From Saccostrea echinata (taxonomy: Eukaryota), in assembly GCF_033153115.1 (NCBI RefSeq), contig NW_026889783.1, positions 2,976,001 to 3,040,000 of the forward strand: a DNA stretch of 64,000 bases. Direction: 5' to 3'. Positions 1 to 13,419 of this stretch are shown one piece after another. The notes beneath the pieces were generated by a model. The model ran no database searches and was not told the DNA's origin. It saw nothing but the letters and a program-made list of their open reading frames with translations. The first letter of the stretch is position 1. The number at the start of each line of letters is the position of its first letter. Position numbers and translations under genes: made by a program.

Positions 1-329
1 GCTTCTTCTTCATTAGTAGTATTTTTACTTACGTATTCCTATTAAAAACTTTGATTCCTATTATGAGCCCATCCTAACCCCAGGGGTGTTGATTTGAATA
101 GATTTGAGTAATCAGGGTTTTGCTGTCTTCAAGGATTAAAAAAAAAATCCCAGTACAATTTTATCATGTATGTTATATTTACTTCACCTTTTGTGACTGT
201 GGTCTACCTTGGGGACCATGATTTGAACAATATTGAATTTACACTATCTGATGATGCTTTCATATTAAAATGACTGATCATGACTGTGCTGTTCTTGAGA
301 AGAATTTTCCATTTTATCCCCATGAACTA

Positions 330-1246
330 AATGTGTTGTAACACCAATAATGCCCCCGCAGGCCTAAATTCTTAATGTCATATTTACTTTTAAATTTGCT
401 TGCACAGAGGATTTTTTTCTAAGTTAAAGAGGGTTAACTCTGTCAAAAGTCATCAAATCATGACTAAATTCAAACTTGACCTGTATTTCCTTGTAAAATA
501 CCTGCATATGCAATTCCAAATTCATACATCCCTGCAAAAGAAGGGAAGCGGAAACTAAAAATTTCTTATTTTTTTCTAAGTTCAAGAGGGATGACTCCGT
601 TAAAAATCATTGGACCAGGGCGAAATTCAAACTTGACTTGTAATTTCTGGTAAAATACCTGCACATGTACATACATCCATACAAAAGTAAGAGAGCATAA
701 ACTGAAAATTTCTTCTTTTTTTTTAAAGTTCAAGTGGATAACGCTATCAAAAAATCATTGGACCACAACCAAATTCAAACTTGACCAGTATTTTCTAAGT
801 AAATACCTGCATATGCAATTTCAACCTTATACTTACTTCCTTACAAAAGTAAGAGGGTGGAGACTGAAAATTTCTTATTTTTTCTAAGTTCAAGAGGGAT
901 AACTCTGTCAAAACTCATTGAACCATGATAAATTCTATTTGACTTGTAATTTCTGGTTAAATACCTGCACATGCAACTTCAACCTTATACATACATCCCT
1001 ACAAAAGTAAGAGAGCGGAAACTGAAAATTTAAATTTTTTTCTAAGTTCAACAGGGATAAGTCTGTCAAAAATCATCGTACCATGACCAAATTTGATCTT
1101 GACCTGCAAATTCCTATGATGTATCAAATTTAAGTTGAATGTGTGCAACTGTTGAAAAGACACTGAAGAGAAAGTCAATGATGATGGAATTACTGAACAG
1201 GGTAACGCTATATGTCCCCAGCCATTTTATAGCGGGGACATAAAAA
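330..1246 (-). mobile_element. Non-autonomous Helitron/Helentron-type element with ~155-bp internal tandem repeats, nested in a degraded Cg170-type element
   Basis: About five repeats of aagttcaagagggataactctgtcaaaa (419-1100). Short subterminal IR atgcccccgc / gcggggacat. T-run end. Confidence 0.6.
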
Positions 1247-1658
1247 TACTGATTGGCCTAACTGTCGGGGACATGATTTGGACAAATTTAAATGTACACT
1301 ATATCAGGAGGCTTTCAAGTAAATTTAATTTCTGGGTCCAGTGGTTATTAGATGATTTTTAACTGTGCCCAACTAGTTTTTAGTATTTCTTAATTATTGC
1401 CCCTTTCCTTGGAATAGGATGTTGCCTTTCAATTGAACAAACTTGAACTCCCTTGTGCCCAATGATGTTTTTTGTCAAATTTGGTTGAAATTGGGCCTCT
1501 TTGAAAAATGAATGTTTCCAATGACAAGACTTTGACAGACAATGACCAAAAAAGTATATTTCTTTTATCATGTTCATGTCAGAGATGACTCTCCCAGTTG
1601 GTTCCACCACCTTATGTATTAAGTTATTAGCTACTTCAATTTGTTTTTTTTTTCTCAG

Positions 1659-4600
1659 GACAATCCATCTGAAAACCCGTATGTTTGGCTAACAGATCCA
1701 CTCTTAAAGGGGCCAAAGGCTGATCTAACCAGAGAAATTCAACTCCCACCATCTTCTGCATCACTTGGAATCTTCCTAGACCTGGCAGTGGATAAGTTAG
1801 GTGTAAATGTGGGTGCAGCCATACTTTCCTGGTCAGCTATGTATGCTCTGCAACTGTACAGGAAGTGGATGTCTGATGTGCGGCATGTAAATTTGCCAGT
1901 TCTATATGGACCTCCCACAGCTGGCAAGACAACAATAGCTCAGTGCGGGGCATGGCTGAATGGCTGTTCAGATAAACATATTGCTTCAAGGTACTGATAG
2001 AAACCATTGTGTTAGCCAAATTATTATTATTAGGAAATGTAAAACAGTCTCAAAATTTATTATTTACCATGCAAATTGCATTACCTGAGTTCTGAATCAA
2101 TAAATGGCGTACCTAGATGTTTGCTTCAGAAATATGATAACATTCAATTCACCTGTTTTCATCTACTTGTTCATTTTAAGGATAAATAACCTTTTAACAA
2201 AAATCAGCAGTATATAACAAATAAACTTCAAGTTCAAATTATTATGGACTGGAATATTTTTTTCCAAAGTAAGTTTGAAAATTATTTGTGATTTTTAAAT
2301 TAATTATGTCTTTAATTTTGAGCTATATCTTGAAGAAATTAAAATAGAAACTGGAACCAAGTCACATATTTAAGGACCCCCCCCCCCCAAAAAAAAATGT
2401 GTTGAAAATCAGTCAAAAATATATATCAATTAATCCAAGTTGTTTTCTTCTAATTTTAATTTATTTATTTTTGGTAATTAAATTGATATTAAATTGACTA
2501 ATTTATTCATTTAGGTGCACTTTGGCATTTGTTACCCAGTGGATAACCACATGCAGTGTACCCTTTGTGTGGGACGATCCGACAACATCAGAAGAAGTTG
2601 CACAACTTGCAGTTGATCTTGGCAATGGTGCGGTAAGTGAAATGCTTTGCATGTGGTTTTTCTGTTCATTTTGATCACTAAATGAATTTATGCCATTCTC
2701 AAAAGTAGTCGCATAGTTGAAAATGGTGAGGCAGGGGATGGGGTCTCAGCTTTGTTAAAGTACATGGAAAGCCAAAAACAATAGGGGAAAATTTATCTGA
2801 CAAGAAAAAAAATTACTAAAATATTATGATACAAATATACATGTATCCTTCCTGACATATATGATCAATAAGGTGAGGGTGGAGGACAAGAAAATTTTAA
2901 CCTTCCACCCAACAATTGAAATAGGGGTCAATCGCCCCCTTCTCACAGACTTAGATAACTTTATATATGTGCCAGTGCCTAAACTTCATTTCATTTTGTT
3001 TTAGGTTAGAGGAAAAGCAACAGAAGATCCTAAAACCCCACTGACAGGATGCCTGGTCACTGCAAATTTTGATCTAAGTTGTCTTTTGAAGTAAGTACCT
3101 TAAATGAATTTTTATAGTACATTCTTTTAAGAACTATGAAGATAATTTAAGAATTGAATTTAAATTGGAAATTGAAATAATAATGTATTTGTTAGTGAAC
3201 TGTTTATTGGCTTTCATTGTGTGTTTCACCTCTTCACAAGTGCTCTTAATGTATTAACGTTCAACAATCTTTGGTCTAAAAATACAATAAGATGGATGAC
3301 TGGTCCTTGTATGAGTAAATTTACCTATAAATTTTTAGATTCTACAAATCTCTATTCCTCACAATGTTGACCTTGATCAGAGCAAATTTTATCTTGTCAT
3401 ATTTAAGGTTTATATAGTTTTTTTTTAACTATATTACAGGTATTTCAGTAGACTTTTTGTGATGAAAGTGGAAAAGCTACCACGAAGAAAGCAGACCGGG
3501 GAGGCAAAGGCTCTGGAAGATGCTGCTTCTGAAGCTTCAAGTGCCTTACCCATGGTACTGAATGCACTAAACAAAATCAACATGACCGAGATTCAGGAAG
3601 CTGTGCAAGCTGTCGATTTTGATGCCGACATACGTATTCTGGAAGGAATAGCAGTTCCGGTTGTGTGTGCAGAAAAGGTAACAATTCATCACATAGGAAC
3701 ATTTTATTCCATACAAGTCACTCAGCATATTGAAACTAGGGGTATGAAAAGCACACTTAAAAGTAATTTATTTAAAAAGAAATTGTTCCCTTATGTGAAA
3801 CAAAGTAACTTATCTACCTAATATCATAGGGTGCTTCAGTACTTCATTGTTTTACATTTTTTGTAACTTCACTGCAGGAGTAGAGATATCCTGTTAGAAA
3901 TATAAACAATGCAAATGATAATTTTTGGCAAATGACAATGTTTAAAACCAGACAAATTAAGTGCCCTGGGAATTCTATGATTTTTCCTAAAATTAATATA
4001 CACAATTTATTTCTGTAGCGGGTAGACAACAAAGCTATCAATTATTGAATTTTCTCAAAGATCATATTACAGAGGCAGACACAAAGATGATTAGCAAGAT
4101 TATTTCATTCAACATAATTTAATTTTGTTGGGTGTCCCAACAATGCATCCCTTTTCGCAATTGAACCAGTGAAAGCACCATCTTAAAAAATTCTGAAAGA
4201 ATGTACAAACATGTTTAGAAAGTTATAAAAATACATGAAACATTAATCTATAAGAAATATAATAGGATTTTTTTTTTTTGGAACGCTAATAAAACAAAAT
4301 TTCTGAAGTTTCTGTTTTAGGGAGCATTCATTTTTTTAAGGCAGCTTAATTAATTTTCGAGTACCTATTAAGGATGTGCGATTTTATCGGTATACCAGTA
4401 TATCGTGATTTTTAATTGTGTAATATGTATCATGATACGGAGATTAAAAGACCGGTACATGGGTATACAATTATATACGAAAATTATCAATTTATTTGTT
4501 CAAACTTTCAAATTACGATTACAGGAAGTGTTTAAAATGTTGAAAACGGTAAAAGAAAGGCATCTTAGCATCCAAACATGCTTTATATTATATAAATAAA

Positions 4601-7600
4601 AAAAAATGAAGTTAGGTTTTTCCAGCATATATATAGGAAAATTATGGATATTCATTTAAAATCATTGTAAAATTTGCATGTAAAAATATCATGTTATTAT
4701 CATGATATTCTGGGGAAAAAATCATGATATTTCGTGATACAAAATTTTTCAATACCCATCCCTAGTACCTATATACTCATTGACTCCCCAAGTTTTAATA
4801 GACTGTTGGTCTCTTTTCTCATTTATCAAACTATATATTACATGTATAAATAAGCACAATTATTCTACCATAGTATAAAAGCATAGAAAGACTGATATCT
4901 AATTATGTCAAATTTTTTTTTTTATAAATTGTAACACAACATTTCAGATACTCAGAGTAGCCCAGAGGGAGGAGTATATGGAGAATGTACATGCTTATGT
5001 GAAAGAGACACTCATTCCCTACTACAAAAACTCCCTCGAAGAATGCAGCAAAACACCAGAAACAGTACCCCCCTTGCCTCGGGACATCAGCATAACAGAA
5101 ATTGCAGACACAATTATTGCCAGTGCACACCAGGTAAGAAATCCTGTAAACTTTCAATAGGACATTTCACGTTCCACATCTTATGTCCAAATTGTTTCAG
5201 TGTTTCTCTTGACCTTTTTACTGTTTTACTGTATTTACAACCAAATAAAATACACTCATTTTGTAGGAAACAAGCAGGAATCAAAATACATTTGAAAAGT
5301 AATTTTCTAGATTAAATTTAAAGCCATGCATGAGAATAATTACTAAAATACGACACACATAAAATATTTTTATCAAGTTCTCTCACACACTGATGACAAT
5401 ACTTAAGAGTACTTAATTATTGCATCCCTAATATGGGATCATTGGCTGTCACCACCACAGAAAGATCTCTTGGATTAGAAATATGTATTGTATATTTTTC
5501 CTTCAGATTGATGACGTCTGCCTGGTGAAAGGCTCTGTAATTGCTGTCAGATCAAAGGTCATCCCTCCCCAGATGCTGAAAAAGTTTTCATCTGTGGGAC
5601 GCACAAATCAGACTGCACGGTTTCAGGGGAAGACAAAGAAATGCGTTACAATTCAGAAAGAACAGTTTGAATCTGAGGACTGGTCTCGGATTGTCAGAGC
5701 AGTCAATGGACTTGGTAATTATTGAAATTATACATATATTGATACCAAAAGTATCTCTTGCTATATTAATAATTCCATTTAAAAAAAATTGAAATAAAAA
5801 AAGATTAATTCTTTACATATTACATATAACTCACTTGTGCTTTCAGATTATACTGATAATATTTTATCCAGTGTCTGTCTGCAAGTCTGTCTATAACCTT
5901 TAAGAAATTTCAACTTTTTCTTTAGAACCATTTGGTCGAATAAACACACAGATTAATGTTTGTTTAAACAAAGGGAGATATTTTAGAAAAAGTGAAATAT
6001 TGGTGATGTCATTTAAAAATCTTCTCAATTAGCATCAGGCAAGAGTTTTGTGGGTTTATAACAGAAGAAGCAATTACACGTACATGGAAAGAAATTGCAT
6101 TAAAAATCTTCTGAAGAACAACTTAAATTAGCAATGATACACGATCGTTATTCAAACAACAAATAAATAATGCAGATTCGAATTTGTTCTAATCATAAAC
6201 CCAGCTGTAGGGGCCCAAAAAATACCTCAGGATGTTTGAATCCTAGTTAAATTATAAACTTGATAAATGAAAAGTGTTATGAAATTAAGGTTTAAATATA
6301 ATAGTAAGTGAGGAATGTATACTTGAAAAAAAAATGGTATAATATGGGCATGAACTGACATTTGTTTATGTATTTTCACAGATGAAGTGGAGGAAAGTTG
6401 TCCAAGTTCGCCTGGGACAGACAGTAGTGGTTCAAGTAGATCAGCATCCCCTGTTTCCCTGCCCGAGTCATCCATATCCTTGGAGCCCAGCCAGCAGAGG
6501 TCCTCACATGAACTCCATGCCAAGTCCGATGAGACAACGAAAAGCAAAGAAAGAGTGCGACCATCAGTATCCCCTGTTTCCCTGGCCGAGTCGTCCATAT
6601 CCTCGGAGCCCAGCCAACAGAGGTCCTCACATGAACCCCATGCCAAGTCCGATGAGACAACGAAAAGCAAGGAAAGAGTGCGACCATCAGCATCCCCTGT
6701 TTCCCTGGCCGAGTCGTCCATATCCTCGGAGCCCAGCCAACAGAGCTCCACACCTGAACTCCATGCCAAGTCCGATGAGACAACGAAAAGCAAAGAAAGA
6801 GTGCGACCATCAGCATCCCCTGTTTCCCTGGCCGAGTCGTCCATATCCTCGGAGCCCAGCCAGCAGAGCTCCACACCTGAACTCCATGCCAAGTCCGATA
6901 AGACAACGAAAAGCAAAGAAAGAGTGCGACCATCAGCATCCCCTGTTTCCCTGGCCGAGTCGTCCATATCCTCAGAGCCCAGCCAGCAGAGCTCCACACC
7001 TGAACTCCATGCCAAGTCCGATGAGACAACGAAAAGCAAGGAAAGAGTGCGACCATCAGCATCCCCTGTTTCCCTGGCCGAGCCGTCCATATCCTCGGAG
7101 CCCAGCCAGCAGAGCTCCACACCTGAACTCCATGCCAAGTCCGATGAGACAACGAAAAGCAAAGAAAGAGTGCGACCATCAGCATCCCCTGTTTCCCTGC
7201 CTGAGCCGTCCATATCCTCAGAGCCCAGCCAGCAGAGATCCACACCTGAACTCCATGCCAAGTCCAATGAGACAACGAAAAGCAAAGAAAGAGTGCGACC
7301 ATCAGCATCCCCTGTTTCCCTGCCTGAGCCGTCCATATCCTCGGAGCCCAGCCAGCAGAGCTCCACACCTGAACTCCATGCCAAGTCCGATGAGACAACG
7401 AAAAGCAAAGAAAGAGTACGACCATCAGCATCCCCTGTTTCCCTGCCTGAGCCGTCCATATCCTCGGAGCCCAGCCAGCAGAGATTCACACCTGAACTCC
7501 ATGCCAAGTCCGATGAGACAACGAAAAGCAAAGAAAGAGTGCGACCATCAGCATCCCCTGTTTCCATGGCCGAGTCGTCCATATCCTTGGAGCCCAGCCA

Positions 7601-8213
7601 GCAGAGGTCCTCACATGAACCCCATGCCAAGTCTGATGAGACAATGAAAAGCAAAGAAAGAGTACGACCATCAGCATCCCCTGTTTCCCTGGAGGAGGAG
7701 TCCATATCCTCAGAACCCAGCCAAGAGATTTCCTCAACAGTACCCAATTACAAAACAATGGCACCAACCTCCAAGGGCCTTAGAGGAAGGATTCACAGCA
7801 TACCCACAACCCCTGCTCCTTTTCCACGTCCAAAAAGAGCAGAAAGCAAGGTATTCTTCCATTTAAACATTAATGAAACATTATGCAAACTATCTTAAAG
7901 AATGATTTAGAACTAAAGAATTGAAATTTTCTTTTATATTTCTGCATAGTGTTTATTTTTGCTAGATAGGAGTGACTTGTCTGTTTTCTCTCACACATAT
8001 TCATGAAATTTGAATTTAGTAATTTATATTTCCATATTTTGATTACAGATAACATGTGGAACGTGTAAAAAGGTCGGAAGAGGAGGAATGAACTGGGTGT
8101 GCTGTGATGGGTGTGATGCCTGGCACCACCAGAAATGCACAATGCCGTTACACAAATTCAGGGCCCTTGGAGATAAGGAGTGGTTTTGTCCCCCTTGCAG
8201 GAACAGCTCTTGA
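1659..8213 (+). CDS. 5'-incomplete multi-exon gene: P-loop AAA+ ATPase/helicase (DUF927/Cch- or SF3-like) + 41-aa repeats + PHD finger
   Basis: Phase-compatible AG/GT exons 1659-1990, 2515-2632, 3005-3090, 3440-3677, 4948-5133, 5507-5714, 6382-7850, 8049-8213 (TGA). Motifs: Walker A LYGPPTAGKTT, Walker B PFVWDDP, DLGNGAVRGK, sensor CLVTANF, putative Arg finger FSRLF. The last exon CGTC...WVCCDGCDAWHHQKC...WFCPPC is a C4HC3 PHD finger. AATAAA at ~8266. Confidence 0.8.
4369..4764. mobile_element. hAT-type MITE in intron
   Basis: Ends TAAGGATG...CATCCCTA; exact 8-bp TSD GTACCTAT at 4361-4368 and 4765-4772. Confidence 0.85.
6441..7725 (+). repeat. Coding tandem repeat, 123-bp unit (41 aa PSASPVSLAESSISSEPSQQSSTPELHAKSDETTKSKERVR), ~10.5 copies
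   Basis: Unit starts at 6441, 6564, etc.; near-identical copies inside exon 6382-7850. Confidence 0.95.
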
Positions 8214-9732
8214 TGGACTGTTGTGTGTTACAATGTACTATGTTTTAATAATTTATTATTTATACAATAAAATTGTTTTTAATCAGATTTAGAAGTTGCT
8301 AGTATTGTATTAGGAAAACAATGATCTTCAAAGTATGGACAGAAATTCATTAATTATAGATAAAAATTTGGAACAAAACCATTCAAAAAGAATTTAAATT
8401 TGGTTTACAATATGATTCAGCATTGCTGGTATATTAAATAATCACCATACGCTAAAAATTATGATGTAATAATGCAATTCATTCATTTTGGTTTTCATGA
8501 AATGGAAAAGAAACCCTCAAAATATAGTTGTAACCCGTGTAACCACAGAGAAGAAGACCCCCTGCTAGACTTCTTTTGCTTTGTAACCATTGTCACCAAA
8601 GAAATATACTTGTAACCCATGTAACCACAGAAAACTGTAAAAATTAGTGATATATCAACCTGATAAAAGACCATTGATGTTTATTACTGAATGCAAAACA
8701 TTGTAATTAGTTGCTTAAATACACAGTTGCCATCTTCTAATGCTGCTTTGGTCATTAAAAGATACAGTTATAATGTAGGTCACACTCTAGTTAAAAATAG
8801 ATCACACTACAGGGTGTTGCTAAAATATACCTGACTCTAATTTGTTTATTATTTTAGAGGGTACTTTTTTCATCTGTACATACCGGTATTCTATTTAAAA
8901 ACAAATTACCAACATAGAATTTGTAACATAAAACCTAGCTATGTTTTACTTCACTTACTGGTTGATATGTTACGAATTTGACATTCTCCACTATTGTTAT
9001 GCATAAGTAAAACAAGATGTTTCTTGTTATATGAGTCATTAAAATGATGATTCGATGGATGATTGAATGAATGAGATGTATTGACATTTATTCTTGCTTA
9101 CCTGTTATTATTTATTAGAGTTATTTGAAATCAATGATGTGCTAGGTGCAAATTGTTCACCAGGTACCGAATTTCCTCCACGTTTTGAGGAATACGGAAC
9201 GTAAATAAACCATTCACTGGTCTACAAATGCTTTTATATAGTACTAAATATTCTTACCTTTGATAATTGGGGTAATTAATAAATCCATTCACTGATAATT
9301 AGAGTAAAAACCTTACAATTACACTCTGCTTTTTCATACTAAGCGGCAAAAGATGTAAAGTACATTCGGAACACCTCGGATGCGTATAATAGTTAAATGT
9401 ATCCGAAGCTTTCCGGCTATTTGAAGTTATGGCGCCAAATCTCATGCAATATACGTCATAATGGGTGTGAAGGCTTTATATATGAGCTCCCCGGGCTCTG
9501 ACAGTCAGACGTCTGCTGTCTCACTCACTGTGCGGTCGCCAAATCTGTCAGATAACGATGACCTTACAAGAACAAGGCTCAGAAGAGTTTAGATGGGTAA
9601 TTATCCGTTCAACATTCAGATTAAGGAGCCCCACAATGTTACGCCGCTAAACATAAAGCTGTAAGTCGTAACAGATATATCAATACTAAATCAAAAATAA
9701 AATTTTATCCAATGTTTTAATGATGCTGTTAA

Positions 9733-10217
9733 GGTCAAGATCTAGTAAATGACTTTAGACTAACTTTTTGGTGCTAGATCCATTATGACGTCATAATCAA
9801 TTTTAACTTTCTTTTTCCCGTACTTTACAGCTCTAATAGAATTATGTAGAAAATAAAGTATTTTCATGGAATTCATTTTGAAATCATGTGAAAAGTAACC
9901 CCGATACCTATGTTCAATTTAATATTATTTTAAAGAAGATGCCAAGAACATACAAATTATCGTTTTCTAAGAGACTGTAAGCAATGTGGATACATTTCCT
10001 TCGTTTGATATGGAAAAAACTCCCGTATTCATGTCCGGTTTTCTTAATTTTTCATTGAAAATGACAGTTCAAAATATGATTTTTTGTCTTGTTCATCTAC
10101 AAATTATGCCCCGAAACATCTTATTTGACCAAGCTAAAGTTATAAAGCATCATTAAAGGAATTTATTTCTCAAAATTGAGAAATCTGTAGGCACCTTTCA
10201 TTTACTAGATCTTGACC
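9733..10217. mobile_element. Kolobok-like non-autonomous element, copy 1
   Basis: 20-bp perfect TIR GGTCAAGATCTAGTAAATGA; TTAA on both sides. Confidence 0.8.
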
Positions 10218-10511
10218 TTAACTCTTAAATAATTTACTAGGAAATGAGTTGATTTCATTTTGAATACTAAATTTCACTTCATTTGAATAAAAACTTTATC
10301 ATATTTTTCTTAAAACTAAACAACAACTTTATAAAATAAAATTTGTAAAGTAATAAACTAGGAGAAGGTATTTTTTCCTGAATTTTGGGGGTTGGATGGT
10401 CTTTTGCGATTTGAAAAAATGTCGATAAAAAATCTCCAGCTTTGAGACCCAAACTCCAGCAGAAAAATTTCAAATCTCCAGTTGTGATTTTTCAGTTCAG
10501 TCACATATATG

Positions 10512-11851
10512 AAAACAAGACCCCCTGCTAGCATTCCTTTGCTTTGTAACCATTGTCACCAAAGAAATATAGTTGTATCCGTGTAACCGCAGAAAATATG
10601 ACCCCCTGCTAGCCTTCCTTTGCTTTGTAACCATTGTCACCAAAGAAATATAGTTGTAACCTGTGTAACCACTGAAAATAAGACCCCCTGCTAGCCTTCT
10701 TTTGCTTTGTAACCATTGTCACCAAAGAAATATAGTTGTAACCCGTGTAACCACAGAAAAGAAGACCCCCTGCTGGCCTTCTTTTGCTTTGTAACCATTA
10801 GTACCAAAGAAATATAGTTGTAACCCGTGTAACCACTGAAAATAAGACCCCCTGCTGGCCTTCTTTTGCTTTGTAACCATTGTCACCAAAGAAATATAGT
10901 TGTAACCCGTGTAACCACTGAAAATAAGACCCCCTGCTGGCCTTCTTTTGCTTTGTAACCATTGTCACCAAAGAAATATAGTTGTAACCCGTGTAACCAC
11001 TGAAAATAAGACCCCCTGCTGGACTTCTTTTGCTTTGTAACCATTGTCACCAAAGAAATATAGTTGTAACCCGTGTAACCACTGAAAATAAGACCCCCTG
11101 CTGGACTTCTTTTGCTTTGTAACCATTGTCACCAAAGAAATATAGTTGTAACCCGTGTAACCACAGAAAACAAGACCCCCTGCTAGCATTCCTTTGCTTT
11201 GTAACCATTGTCACCAAAGAAATATAGTTGTATCCGTGTAACCGCAGAAAATATGACCCCCTGCTAGCCTTCCTTTGCTTTGTAACCATTGTCACCAAAG
11301 AAATATAGTTGTAACCCGTGTAACCACTGAAAATAAGACCCCCTGCTGGACTTCTTTTGCTTTGTAACCATTGTCACCAAAGAAATATAGTTGTAACCCG
11401 TGTAACCACTGAAAATAAGACCCCCTGCTGGACTTCTTTTGCTTTGTAACCATTGTCACCAAAGAAATATAGTTGTAACCCGTGTAACCACAGAAAACAA
11501 GACCCCCTGCTAGCATTCCTTTGCTTTGTAACCATTGTCACCAAAGAAATATAGTTGTATCCGTGTAACCGCAGAAAATATGACCCCCTGCTAGCCTTCC
11601 TTTGCTTTGTAACCATTGTCACCAAAGAAATATAGTTGTAACCCGTGTAACCACTGAAAATAAGACCCCCTGCTGGACTTCTTTTGCTTTGTAACCATTG
11701 TCACCAAAGAAATATAGTTGTAACCCGTGTAACCACTGAAAATAAGACCCCCTGCTGGACTTCTTTTGCTTTGTAACCATTGTCACCAAAGAAATGTCAC
11801 CAAAGAAATATAGTTGTAACCCATGTAACCACAGAAAAGAAGACCCCCTGA
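10512..11851. repeat. 82-bp satellite array, ~16 units, with a 327-bp higher-order repeat
   Basis: Unit aagaccccctgctagccttcttttgctttgtaaccattgtcaccaaagaaatatagttgtaacccgtgtaaccactgaaaat. Identical spurious ORFs are offset by 327 bp (10965/11292, 11047/11374). Orphan ~1.4 units at 8518-8633. Confidence 0.95.
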
Positions 11852-12290
11852 TGGGTTATAAATTAACTGCATCTCATTTTAGGATTTATGTTACCTTCGT
11901 AACTGGATTAATAGTCCTGTAACAGGGTTACAAATGAACATACTTGAAAGTCAGGGCTAATTTCTTGCCATATCTACGTAAGTTTTCAAACATGTTCAAA
12001 CTTGCACATTACACGATTGTATACTAGCTCTTCTGTAACATTTCGGCAGATATTCTTTTTAATTCCTGGTAGCACTAAGTACAATAATCCACATGTGAAT
12101 TCTGAATACAATGCACATTTACATGCACTAAAAGTATATTTCAATACAGTTTACCATCTTTTAACTCATGTGTTGAAGCCATTTCCGAGCAGTTGCTGGA
12201 ACACATAGTATGATGACGTAATGCATTATTAGGTAGCTAGAACACAAAATATTTCGAGAACATTTTCTCTTTTTCTCTACAATCTGTTAA

Positions 12291-12774
12291 GGTCAAGATC
12301 TAGTAAATGAGTTTAGTCTGTCTTTTGGTGCTAGATCCATTATGAAGTCATAATTGATTTAATTTTATTTTTTCCCGTATTTTATGGCTATAACAGAATT
12401 AAGTAGAAAATGACACATTTTCATGGAATTCAATTTGAAATCATTTCAAAAGGAACCCCGATACCTATATTCAAATTAATATCATTTTAAAGAAGAGGTC
12501 AAGAAGATATGAAAAACCGTTTACTGAGAGACTATAGGCAATATTGATACATTTTGTTTGTCTGAGATGGAGAAAACTCCCATTTTTATTCCTGATTTTC
12601 TTCATTTTTCATTGAAAAGGGCAGTTTAAAATGTGTTTTTTCGTTCCGTTTATCTAAATATTATGCCCCGATACACCTCAATTTATTTAGCTACAATTGT
12701 AATATATTATTAAAGGAATTTGTTTTTCAAATTTGAGAAATCTGTAGGCACTCTTCATTTACTAGATCTTGACC
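12291..12774. mobile_element. Kolobok-like non-autonomous element, copy 2 (same orientation, diverged)
   Basis: Same TIR and TTAA flanks; interior alignable with copy 1. Confidence 0.8.
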
Positions 12775-13419
12775 TTAAATTGTAAGTTGCAATACCTAAA
12801 AAACATATCAAGAAAAGTAAGGTTTTTTTGTTAGTATAAATGCTTTGTCTTGGTCATTTGCATGGTTACTATATATACCTTTATAAGTATTCTCAAACAC
12901 TTCGAAAAATAAATTTCAAATCCACGGCAATCGTCATTCGTGATCGTGTGGTCCAAAATGAGAGATTGATTTGCAAATCAACACACAACGACTTGCATCG
13001 TAGTTCAGACAGTCCAAACAACGACAGAAAAAGTGATCTCTATAATGCAGCTATTAAAACTTTACCAGTCTGGAAAAAAATAATAGGCATTATCGAGGCA
13101 TTTTTCTTCAGATAGTTATTTTAAAAGCTAACCTGGAACATTCAAAGTCATTTAAAGTGCGCCAAAACTAGTTTTCGATGTCACAAACATTTTTTTTAAT
13201 GTCAAAACCCCGCATCTTTGTTTTGGGGGTTAAATTTGATGTTAAAGTATGATCAATTTGTAAATATAGAAAAAACGATGTATTGACCCCGTTTACTATA
13301 CAAAATTAAAGGATTTCTAAGTCTAATTTGATCAAAACAAGATGTCACAAACATTGTGGTTGTGTTCCGATATGAAAAAATAATTTAGAATTACCAATAA
13401 AGAAGGCAAAATATTGTAT

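What the first reader, a model, noticed from the sequence alone, without database searches (positions are those of the whole stretch)
1659..8213. Phage/MGE-type AAA+ helicase core fused to a PHD finger in an intron-rich animal gene
Seen only after splicing: GPPTAGKTT / PFVWDD / DLGNGAVRGK / LVTAN / SRL, then a segment (TARFQGKTKKCVTI) resembling a winged-helix wing, a ~430-aa repeat linker and a PHD finger. Known: this motif order is typical of DUF927/Cch-like and SF3 replicative helicases of phages, integrative elements and DNA viruses, rather than standard animal ATPases. Inference: this is either the replication gene of an unclassified large element or endogenous virus that reads histone marks, or a domesticated gene. 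The 5' part, possibly a primase or nuclease, is not visible here.
Basis: partly seen in the sequence, partly recalled or inferred. Interest (0 to 1): 0.75.

Follow-up and report, generated by a model that had tools for sequence, protein, structure and literature searches.

The report
Plasmid-type helicase with animal chromatin reader
A spliced gene in an oyster-like genome encodes a protein of the helicase family that bacterial plasmids and genomic islands use to copy their DNA, joined by a long repeat linker to a PHD finger predicted to read histone marks; it likely belongs to an undescribed group of large animal transposons, which would then carry their own DNA-unwinding motor.

Summary
Eight exons (1659-8213) splice to 933 codons without a stop; public contigs join all 6 junctions tested; a further 5' exon lies outside the window. 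The protein is a Cch/SaPIbov1-Rep (DUF927) helicase homologue, not SF3: a sponge relative's model matches Cch at Z 21.2 (MCM 13, poxvirus D5 9.5), and the nearest prokaryotic sequences are primase-helicases like those on cyanobacterial plasmids (profile match E 7e-31). All catalytic motifs are intact. It is one member of a wide animal family (bivalves, sponge, amphioxus) that shares intron positions and often the helicase, repeat linker, PHD layout, and mostly lacks a fused primase. Identical copies on two chromosome-size contigs in Mya and divergent paralogues per genome point to a mobile element; named bivalve members following host relationships fit a domesticated gene. Element ends, transposase and copy number could not be tested: no genome is held. 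No capsid link was found. Best reading: helicase gene of a large DNA transposon (0.55); domesticated gene 0.3. Not found in print; three earlier notes of this scan saw the family.

The parts
1659..1990 (+). exon 1 of those visible (not the first of the gene): end of N-domain, helical segment, Walker A GPPTAGKT at 1908-1931
2515..2632 (+). exon 2: Walker B PFVWDD at 2561-2578
3005..3090 (+). exon 3: sensor-1 LVTAN at 3053-3067; followed by a phase-2 intron also predicted at the same place in sponge-like locus L005
3440..3677 (+). exon 4: arginine finger SRL 3447-3455, helical lid with a second conserved arginine (3633-3635)
4948..5133 (+). exon 5: end of lid, start of C-terminal domain
5507..5714 (+). 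exon 6: predicted winged-helix domain, wing at 5612-5653
   Evidence: fold support weak, from the Saccostrea relative
6382..7850 (+). exon 7: Ser/Glu/Pro-rich linker with 10.4 copies of a 123-bp (41-aa) unit at 6440-7723
   Evidence: acceptor joined
8049..8213 (+). exon 8: PHD finger and stop
8266..8271 (+). AATAAA, likely polyadenylation signal
1..1658 (+). 3' part of an intron (holds a 158-bp tandem repeat at 411-1113); the preceding exon lies outside the window
   Evidence: loose contig ends at 1658 are absent from the window; no match of the relatives' N-terminal domain here

Best explanation
This spliced gene encodes an intact Cch/SaPIbov1-Rep-type (DUF927) AAA+ protein with a PHD finger on a long repeat linker, and it is likely the helicase gene of a large animal DNA transposon, where it would form an ATP-driven ring that unwinds the element's DNA while the PHD finger would steer it to chromatin with methylated H3K4. 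SHOWN: gene structure, splicing, intact motifs, family and fold (fold through relatives), PHD, spread across animals, several copies per genome in relatives. INFERRED from Cch: ring assembly, 3'-to-5' movement, binding of an element end or origin by the C-terminal winged helix. INFERRED from PHD residues: H3K4me binding. INFERRED and least secure: that this copy lies in an element, and whether unwinding serves copying (with host primase and polymerase, since no primase is fused) or processing of ends and targets for a transposase.
For: Fold: model of sponge relative P0088 (pLDDT 72-98 in ten-residue blocks over residues 1-440) hits Cch 5DGK Z 21.2, 411 residues, rmsd 4.7, and SaPIbov1 Rep 8TCH Z 20.9; MCM 13.2; Foldseek agrees (E 5e-13); in the viral library the top rows are phage Toprim/DUF927 proteins. 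Atlas on the Saccostrea relative: DUF927 clusters at 0.97. Bivalve profile versus ten bacterial-type proteins: 99.85%, E 7e-31, 394 columns; one of these has its best helicase-length plasmid matches in Nostoc and Gloeothece plasmids of about 40 kb; 7 of 25 long bacterial-type hits carry Prim-Pol, Toprim or CHC2 domains. Motifs K90, D131-D132, N171, R183, R244 intact. Mobility in relatives: Mya P0004 and P0012 are 100% identical over 436 aa on contigs of 64.4 and 58.0 Mb; paralogues about 43% alike within Mercenaria and within Amphimedon, and 38-43% between Mytilus lineages; Mytilus model P0043 joins a fragment to an rva_4 transposase. The same layout (helicase, unrelated repeat linker, PHD) in Amphimedon, C. 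gigas, Saccostrea, Ostrea. PHD keeps 2 of 3 cage aromatics and both acidic positions of Alfin-like H3K4me3 readers, its best PDB matches.
Against: No element end, target duplication or transposase is tied to this copy: the 5' side is outside the window, no genome is held, and the downstream transposons have their own ends. In the tree the named bivalve members group as their hosts do (window with C. gigas; Ostrea with Saccostrea; Mya with Mercenaria; host relationships recalled), which fits vertical descent. Seven or more introns with repeat insertions indicate long residence. One Mytilus lineage has lost the second Walker B aspartate and the arginine finger yet is kept in three species, so domestication happens in this family. 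The window's own protein was not folded and its exons miss Pfam DUF927. One PHD cage aromatic is missing. Mya and Branchiostoma models lack the PHD.
Confidence: 0.55

Rival explanations
1. Domesticated host gene: an element-derived helicase fixed in bivalves, now a chromatin-guided DNA motor in repair, replication or germ-line work.
For: Intact, spliced, polyadenylation signal; ATPase core strongly conserved (exon 2: 40 of 41 residues identical to C. gigas, against 37% in exon 5); bivalve tree follows hosts; word searches returned only one or two clusters per bivalve species.
Against: Only 67.5% identity to C. gigas over 388 aa; identical copies on two contigs in Mya; divergent paralogues; annotated models fuse it to different neighbours (HscB in C. 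gigas, rva_4 in Mytilus), so no shared context is visible. Active transposon genes are also conserved and spliced.
Confidence: 0.3
2. Element gene, but working as a MuB/TnsC/IstB-like ATP-dependent target selector for a cut-and-paste transposase, not as a replicative helicase. This is a sub-case of the best explanation as to origin and a rival as to mechanism.
For: No fused primase in annotated relatives; a PHD on a long tether suits target choice; earlier scan notes place relatives in cut-and-paste elements (untested here). The MuB/TnsC comparison is recalled.
Against: The fold is Cch over the N-domain as well (model range 1-460); MuB, TnsC and IstB are not among the 50 rows shown.
Confidence: 0.2
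3. Replication gene of an endogenous DNA virus.
For: Phage proteins carry the same fold; one IMG/VR contig holds a bacterial-type member.
Against: Four IMG/VR scans with animal-type queries gave no true relative (the single hit L007 matches only the P-loop stretch of an unrelated ATPase); no match among 50,697 phage records; 9 downstream ORFs scanned gave transposon, F-box, RT and DnaJ families and no viral gene; introns are shared between phyla.
Confidence: 0.08
4. Ordinary eukaryotic ATPase (MCM-like or classic AAA) or a mis-spliced chimera.
For: MCM8/9 and MCM2-7 are the next structural neighbours (Z 10-13); sequence search of the PDB gives VCP/p97, over the Walker A only.
Against: Cch scores 8 Z units higher; junctions seen in contigs; deep search reaches bacterial primase-helicases.
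Confidence: 0.02

Closest known systems
Cch helicase of staphylococcal SCCmec (PDB 5DGK) and SaPIbov1 Rep (PDB 8TCH); Pfam DUF927
   Same: N-domain, AAA+ core and helical lid superpose over 411 residues (via relative P0088); stand-alone helicase without fused primase. Passages of PMC7581432 describe Cch as a DUF927, MCM-like, 3'-to-5', multimeric helicase related to the self-loading SaPIbov1 Rep.
   Different: 12% identity; nuclear gene with spliceosomal introns; repeat linker and PHD finger; no recombinase, SSB or origin identified beside it.
Primase-helicase proteins of cyanobacterial plasmids (Nostoc NZ_CP091920.1, Gloeothece NC_014504.1; Prim-Pol, Toprim or CHC2 fused)
   Same: Closest prokaryotic sequences; 394 aligned profile columns with shared motifs. 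PMC5862659 (passages) lists DUF927 among helicases fused to mobile-element primases.
   Different: They mostly carry a long N-terminal region, with a primase domain recognised in several; animal members lack it and fall on the other side of the tree (SH-aLRT 99, quick tree).
AcademH DNA transposons of animals and fungi
   Same: Precedent for a cut-and-paste transposon that encodes a helicase (passage in PMC10045372).
   Different: Its helicase is RecQ-like superfamily 2 (recalled; the paper PMC7165386 is not held), not a ring AAA+; no Academ transposase was found here.
Polinton/Maverick and Helitron elements
   Same: Eukaryotic elements with their own helicase (recalled for Polintons; Helitron passage in PMC12730594).
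   Different: They use D5-like SF3 or Pif1-like SF1 helicases (recalled); D5 scores only Z 9.5 here; no polymerase, capsid or HUH gene seen.
Alfin-like PHD fingers (PDB 1WE9, 5YC3, 5Y20)
   Same: Best PDB matches of exon 8 (E 1e-6 to 2e-5); both cage tryptophans and both acidic positions kept.
   Different: The cage tyrosine position holds glycine; resemblance is of the PHD type only.

Membership tests
Cch / SaPIbov1 Rep (DUF927) helicases | Whole-length fold: N-domain, AAA+, helical lid | tested here: met
   On sponge relative P0088: Z 21.2; tied to the bivalve profile at E 1.1e-12; Atlas on Saccostrea relative. The window's own protein was not folded.
Cch / SaPIbov1 Rep (DUF927) helicases | Pfam PF06048 above its cut-off (22.6 bits) | tested here: inconclusive
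   No hit for window exons or 7 bivalve proteins; sponge-like L005 exon passes (28.7); P0088 20.3.
Cch / SaPIbov1 Rep (DUF927) helicases | Walker A, Walker B, sensor 1, arginine finger intact | tested here: met
Cch / SaPIbov1 Rep (DUF927) helicases | C-terminal winged helix (recalled for Cch; Pfam HTH_56 appears) | tested here: inconclusive
   Residues 394-489 of the Saccostrea model match many winged-helix proteins, but at Z 3-4.9 only.
Cch / SaPIbov1 Rep (DUF927) helicases | Ring formation, ATP-dependent 3'-to-5' unwinding, origin binding | not testable with these tools
   Needs purified protein.
Superfamily 3 helicases (D5, E1, large T) | SF3 fold as best structural class | tested here: not met
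   D5 Z 9.5, E1 9.4, large T 8.1 against Cch 21.2.
Cellular MCM / ordinary eukaryotic AAA+ | Best structural class and one-to-one orthologues | tested here: not met
   MCM Z 13.2 over 245 residues; paralogues and bacterial nearest kin.
Large DNA transposon (superfamily unassigned) | Terminal repeats and target-site duplication around the gene | not testable with these tools
   5' side outside the window; no genome; no candidate end in 8200-14700 beyond two MITEs.
Large DNA transposon (superfamily unassigned) | Linked transposase | tested here: inconclusive
   Mytilus model joined to rva_4; Ostrea model's extra N-terminal part resembles KDZ-associated cysteine clusters only weakly (scores 0.76-0.82; no Pfam hit); 930-aa ORF upstream in L005 unassigned.
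Large DNA transposon (superfamily unassigned) | Dispersed near-identical copies | tested here: inconclusive
   Met in Mya; not testable in this genome.
Endogenous DNA virus | Capsid, packaging or polymerase genes; viral relatives | tested here: inconclusive
   None downstream or in the viral collections; upstream not visible.
PHD finger (PF00628) | Cys4-His-Cys3 pattern above the Pfam cut-off | tested here: met
   37.7 bits vs 24.
H3K4me3-reading PHD subclass | Three-residue aromatic cage and acidic pocket | tested here: inconclusive
   2 of 3 aromatics, both acids; binding untested.

The most novel reading that the evidence does not exclude
An undescribed class of large self-replicating animal transposons, spread from sponges to bivalves and amphioxus, copies its own DNA with an MCM-like ring helicase taken from a cyanobacterial-type plasmid replicon, which lost its primase, gained introns early in animal history and gained a PHD finger that places replication or insertion at H3K4-methylated chromatin.
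Probability: 0.3. Interest if true: 0.85.

Novelty: new variant of a known kind. Interest (0 to 1): 0.62.

Why it matters
Cch/DUF927 helicases are described from bacterial islands, plasmids and phages; my paper searches found none from animals. A spliced, catalytically intact animal branch with a histone reader means either a type of eukaryotic mobile element with a replication or targeting mode not yet described, or a self-loading MCM-like motor recruited by animals. Both are directly testable with one purified protein and existing bivalve genomes, and hundreds of 'uncharacterized' invertebrate proteins would get a function.

Tried and rejected
Pfam on single exons finds only the PHD; PHROGs nothing below E 0.06; PDB sequence search only Walker A matches to VCP. 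First structure model (Saccostrea, 4 sequences) was poor (pLDDT 44.5) and gave no Foldseek hit; used only for the weak winged-helix hint. Viral scans with animal-type queries: no true relative in 4 of 4; L007 is a P-loop chance hit. Genome scan: one 30-residue hit, E 2e-4, discarded. No listed holder is on record as RNA. The 496-bp 'direct repeats' at 9726 and 12284 looked like element ends around the 82-bp array but are two MITEs with their own 24-bp inverted ends. The 12.6-kb element at 14571-27221 has its own inverted ends and does not enclose the gene. A KDZ link stays a weak lead; nothing like that part was found in the window or loci L001-L008. No shared neighbour gene between L003-L005 and the window. 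HscB at the start of the C. gigas model is taken as a gene-model join: the window's upstream exon matches the family's N-domain instead (7 of 10 residues identical to Saccostrea). No complex prediction was run: a ring would pass by likeness to solved structures. Paper searches for an animal Cch/DUF927 element found none; most subscription journals and Repbase are outside the library, and supplements were not read.

Full report
OBSERVATION. The eight exons named by their motifs splice with GT-AG introns into 933 codons and one final stop. Public contigs laid on 1200-6440 join 6 of 6 predicted junctions, one contig running from an upstream exon through to exon 7. The runs are only guessed to be RNA; three come from one study and the fourth, from a second study, shows one junction. 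One contig keeps intron sequence before exon 1. Junction 7-8 lay outside the stretch laid, but annotated proteins of Crassostrea gigas (P0005) and Saccostrea (P0002) carry the same PHD exon after a different low-complexity linker. The gene begins outside the window: contigs leave the window at 1658 with at least 254 further bases whose last codons match the Saccostrea protein at 7 of 10 positions. The host is inferred to be an oyster-like bivalve from 67.5% identity to C. gigas over 388 aa.

FAMILY. Pfam sees only the PHD in the exons. A profile of 8 bivalve sequences found 273 proteins at E up to 0.001 among 1.84 billion; the best 150 were listed, I read 59 of them and looked up names for 10. 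They fall in two groups. One is animal-type: Mercenaria, Mytilus, Ostrea, Amphimedon, Branchiostoma and many unnamed exon-sized pieces. The other is long bacterial-type proteins, of which 7 of 25 scanned carry Prim-Pol, Toprim or CHC2 domains. For one of these, the two helicase-length plasmid matches are Nostoc and Gloeothece plasmids; the label 'cyanobacterial' rests on these two records. Bivalve and bacterial profiles align over 394 columns (E 7e-31). A model of the Amphimedon member, confident over residues 1-440, matches Cch (Z 21.2) and SaPIbov1 Rep (Z 20.9), well above MCM (13.2) and SF3 helicases (8-9.5) (Foldseek). So it works like a Cch-type helicase, and by fold and motifs is a member of that family; the Pfam DUF927 cut-off is passed only by relatives.

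ANATOMY. N-terminal domain (outside the window), AAA+ core with K90, D131-D132, N171 and R183 (numbering from 1659), lid with R244 matching a conserved arginine of the bacterial proteins, a predicted winged helix (weak), about 490 aa of Ser/Glu/Pro-rich linker with ten near-identical 41-aa units and no frame break, then a PHD finger closest to Alfin-like readers. It keeps both cage tryptophans and both acidic positions named for AL5 in PMC12096798 (passage), but not the tyrosine. The linker sequences of Amphimedon, Branchiostoma, C. gigas and Ostrea differ from each other by eye, so its length and flexibility, not its sequence, seem to be kept.

AGE IN ANIMALS. The phase-2 intron after sensor 1 sits at the same profile position in the window and, as predicted, in sponge-like locus L005. 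Of 123 short matched stretches, 38 end at profile positions 310-324, 14 at 250-254 and 14 at 395-404, where the window has introns; part of this may reflect where the profile weakens. In a quick tree of 80 rows (97 long enough, 17 near-duplicates dropped; no outgroup; careful search unfinished) 27 bacterial-type rows form one side with SH-aLRT 99; the Branchiostoma row is a long branch of unsure place, and P0173 was mislabelled bacterial by my length rule though it is Ostrea. One old entry into animals fits; direction and donor are not shown.

ELEMENT OR HOST GENE. For an element: two Mya proteins identical over 436 aa on different chromosome-size contigs; paralogues about 40% alike within Mytilus, Mercenaria and Amphimedon; gene models joined to different neighbours, among them an rva_4 transposase. 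Two earlier notes of this scan place sponge-like relatives inside large cut-and-paste transposons; these are unchecked leads that I could not test. For a host gene: named bivalve members group as their hosts do, the gene is intron-rich and expressed, and a catalytically degenerate lineage persists in three Mytilus species. For this copy nothing decides: no genome is held and the 3' side shows only unrelated repeats and elements. The 82-bp array has no shown tie to the gene. No viral link was found.

MECHANISM. Most likely (0.55): helicase gene of a large DNA transposon. By analogy to Cch (PMC7581432, passages: multimeric, 3'-to-5', related to self-loading SaPI Rep proteins that bind their origins), subunits would assemble on an element end or origin through the winged helix, hydrolyse ATP at subunit interfaces and unwind DNA. 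With no primase fused in annotated relatives (P0012, P0014, P0088), copying would borrow host enzymes, or the motor would serve end and target handling for a transposase. The PHD on its long tether would bias loading or insertion to H3K4-methylated chromatin. Rivals: domesticated gene 0.3, virus 0.08, ordinary ATPase 0.02.

LITERATURE. Seen as passages only: PMC7581432, PMC10061031, PMC5862659, PMC10045372, PMC12096798, PMC12730594 and PMC4784904 (the last two had nothing on this family). PMC1176014 and PMC7165386 are not held. Searches listed no paper on an animal DUF927/Cch protein; supplements and Repbase were not seen and may mention it.

VERDICT. Real, expressed, and not ordinary: an animal branch of a bacterial mobile-element helicase family with an added chromatin reader. 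New variant of a known kind; interest 0.62, held down because the element context is unproven here and the scan has met the family before.

Noticed in passing
window 14571-27221: 12.6-kb DNA transposon: about 540-bp inverted ends with 21-bp subrepeats, the 6-mer CATAGA directly left and 3 bp beyond the right arm, enclosing a 681-codon ORF with a HECT ligase domain (+, 19778-21820) and a broken rva_4 transposase (-, 24722-26638). The TA start and 6-bp duplication fit IS3EU/GingerRoot as described in PMC10045372.
   Followed up: partly
window 9729-10221 and 12287-12778: Two copies (82% alike) of a 495-bp MITE with perfect 24-bp inverted ends that begin with TTAA; Kolobok- or piggyBac-like (label recalled).
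   Followed up: partly
window 10510-11795 and 8520-8635: 82-bp satellite array (15.7 units) with a detached 115-bp piece 300 bp after the gene's stop.
   Followed up: partly
window 35694-38009 (-): Single 772-codon ORF with F-box and LRR domains.
   Followed up: no
window 48494-51001 (-), within 47608-56044: Frameshifted LINE (endonuclease and RT) lying between two exons of a DnaJ-domain gene.
   Followed up: no
window 4372-4750: Small repeat in intron 4, covered by many unrelated contigs.
   Followed up: no
P0014 cluster (Mytilus, three species): Family member that lost the second Walker B aspartate, the arginine finger, winged helix and PHD but is kept at over 90% identity: candidate domesticated dead ATPase.
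   Followed up: partly
P0001/P0005/P0006 (C. gigas): Gene models join the 5' part of mitochondrial co-chaperone HscB to this gene; it may sit in or beside an HscB intron.
   Followed up: no
L005 1176-3968 (+): Intact 930-codon ORF 3.7 kb upstream of a sponge-like family member; looks by eye like a DDE transposase with OTU-like and CXC parts, but no Pfam or PDB assignment.
   Followed up: partly
L008 (IMG/VR contig, 61 kb): Bacterial-type member (1138 aa) beside FtsK and an exonuclease gene.
   Followed up: partly
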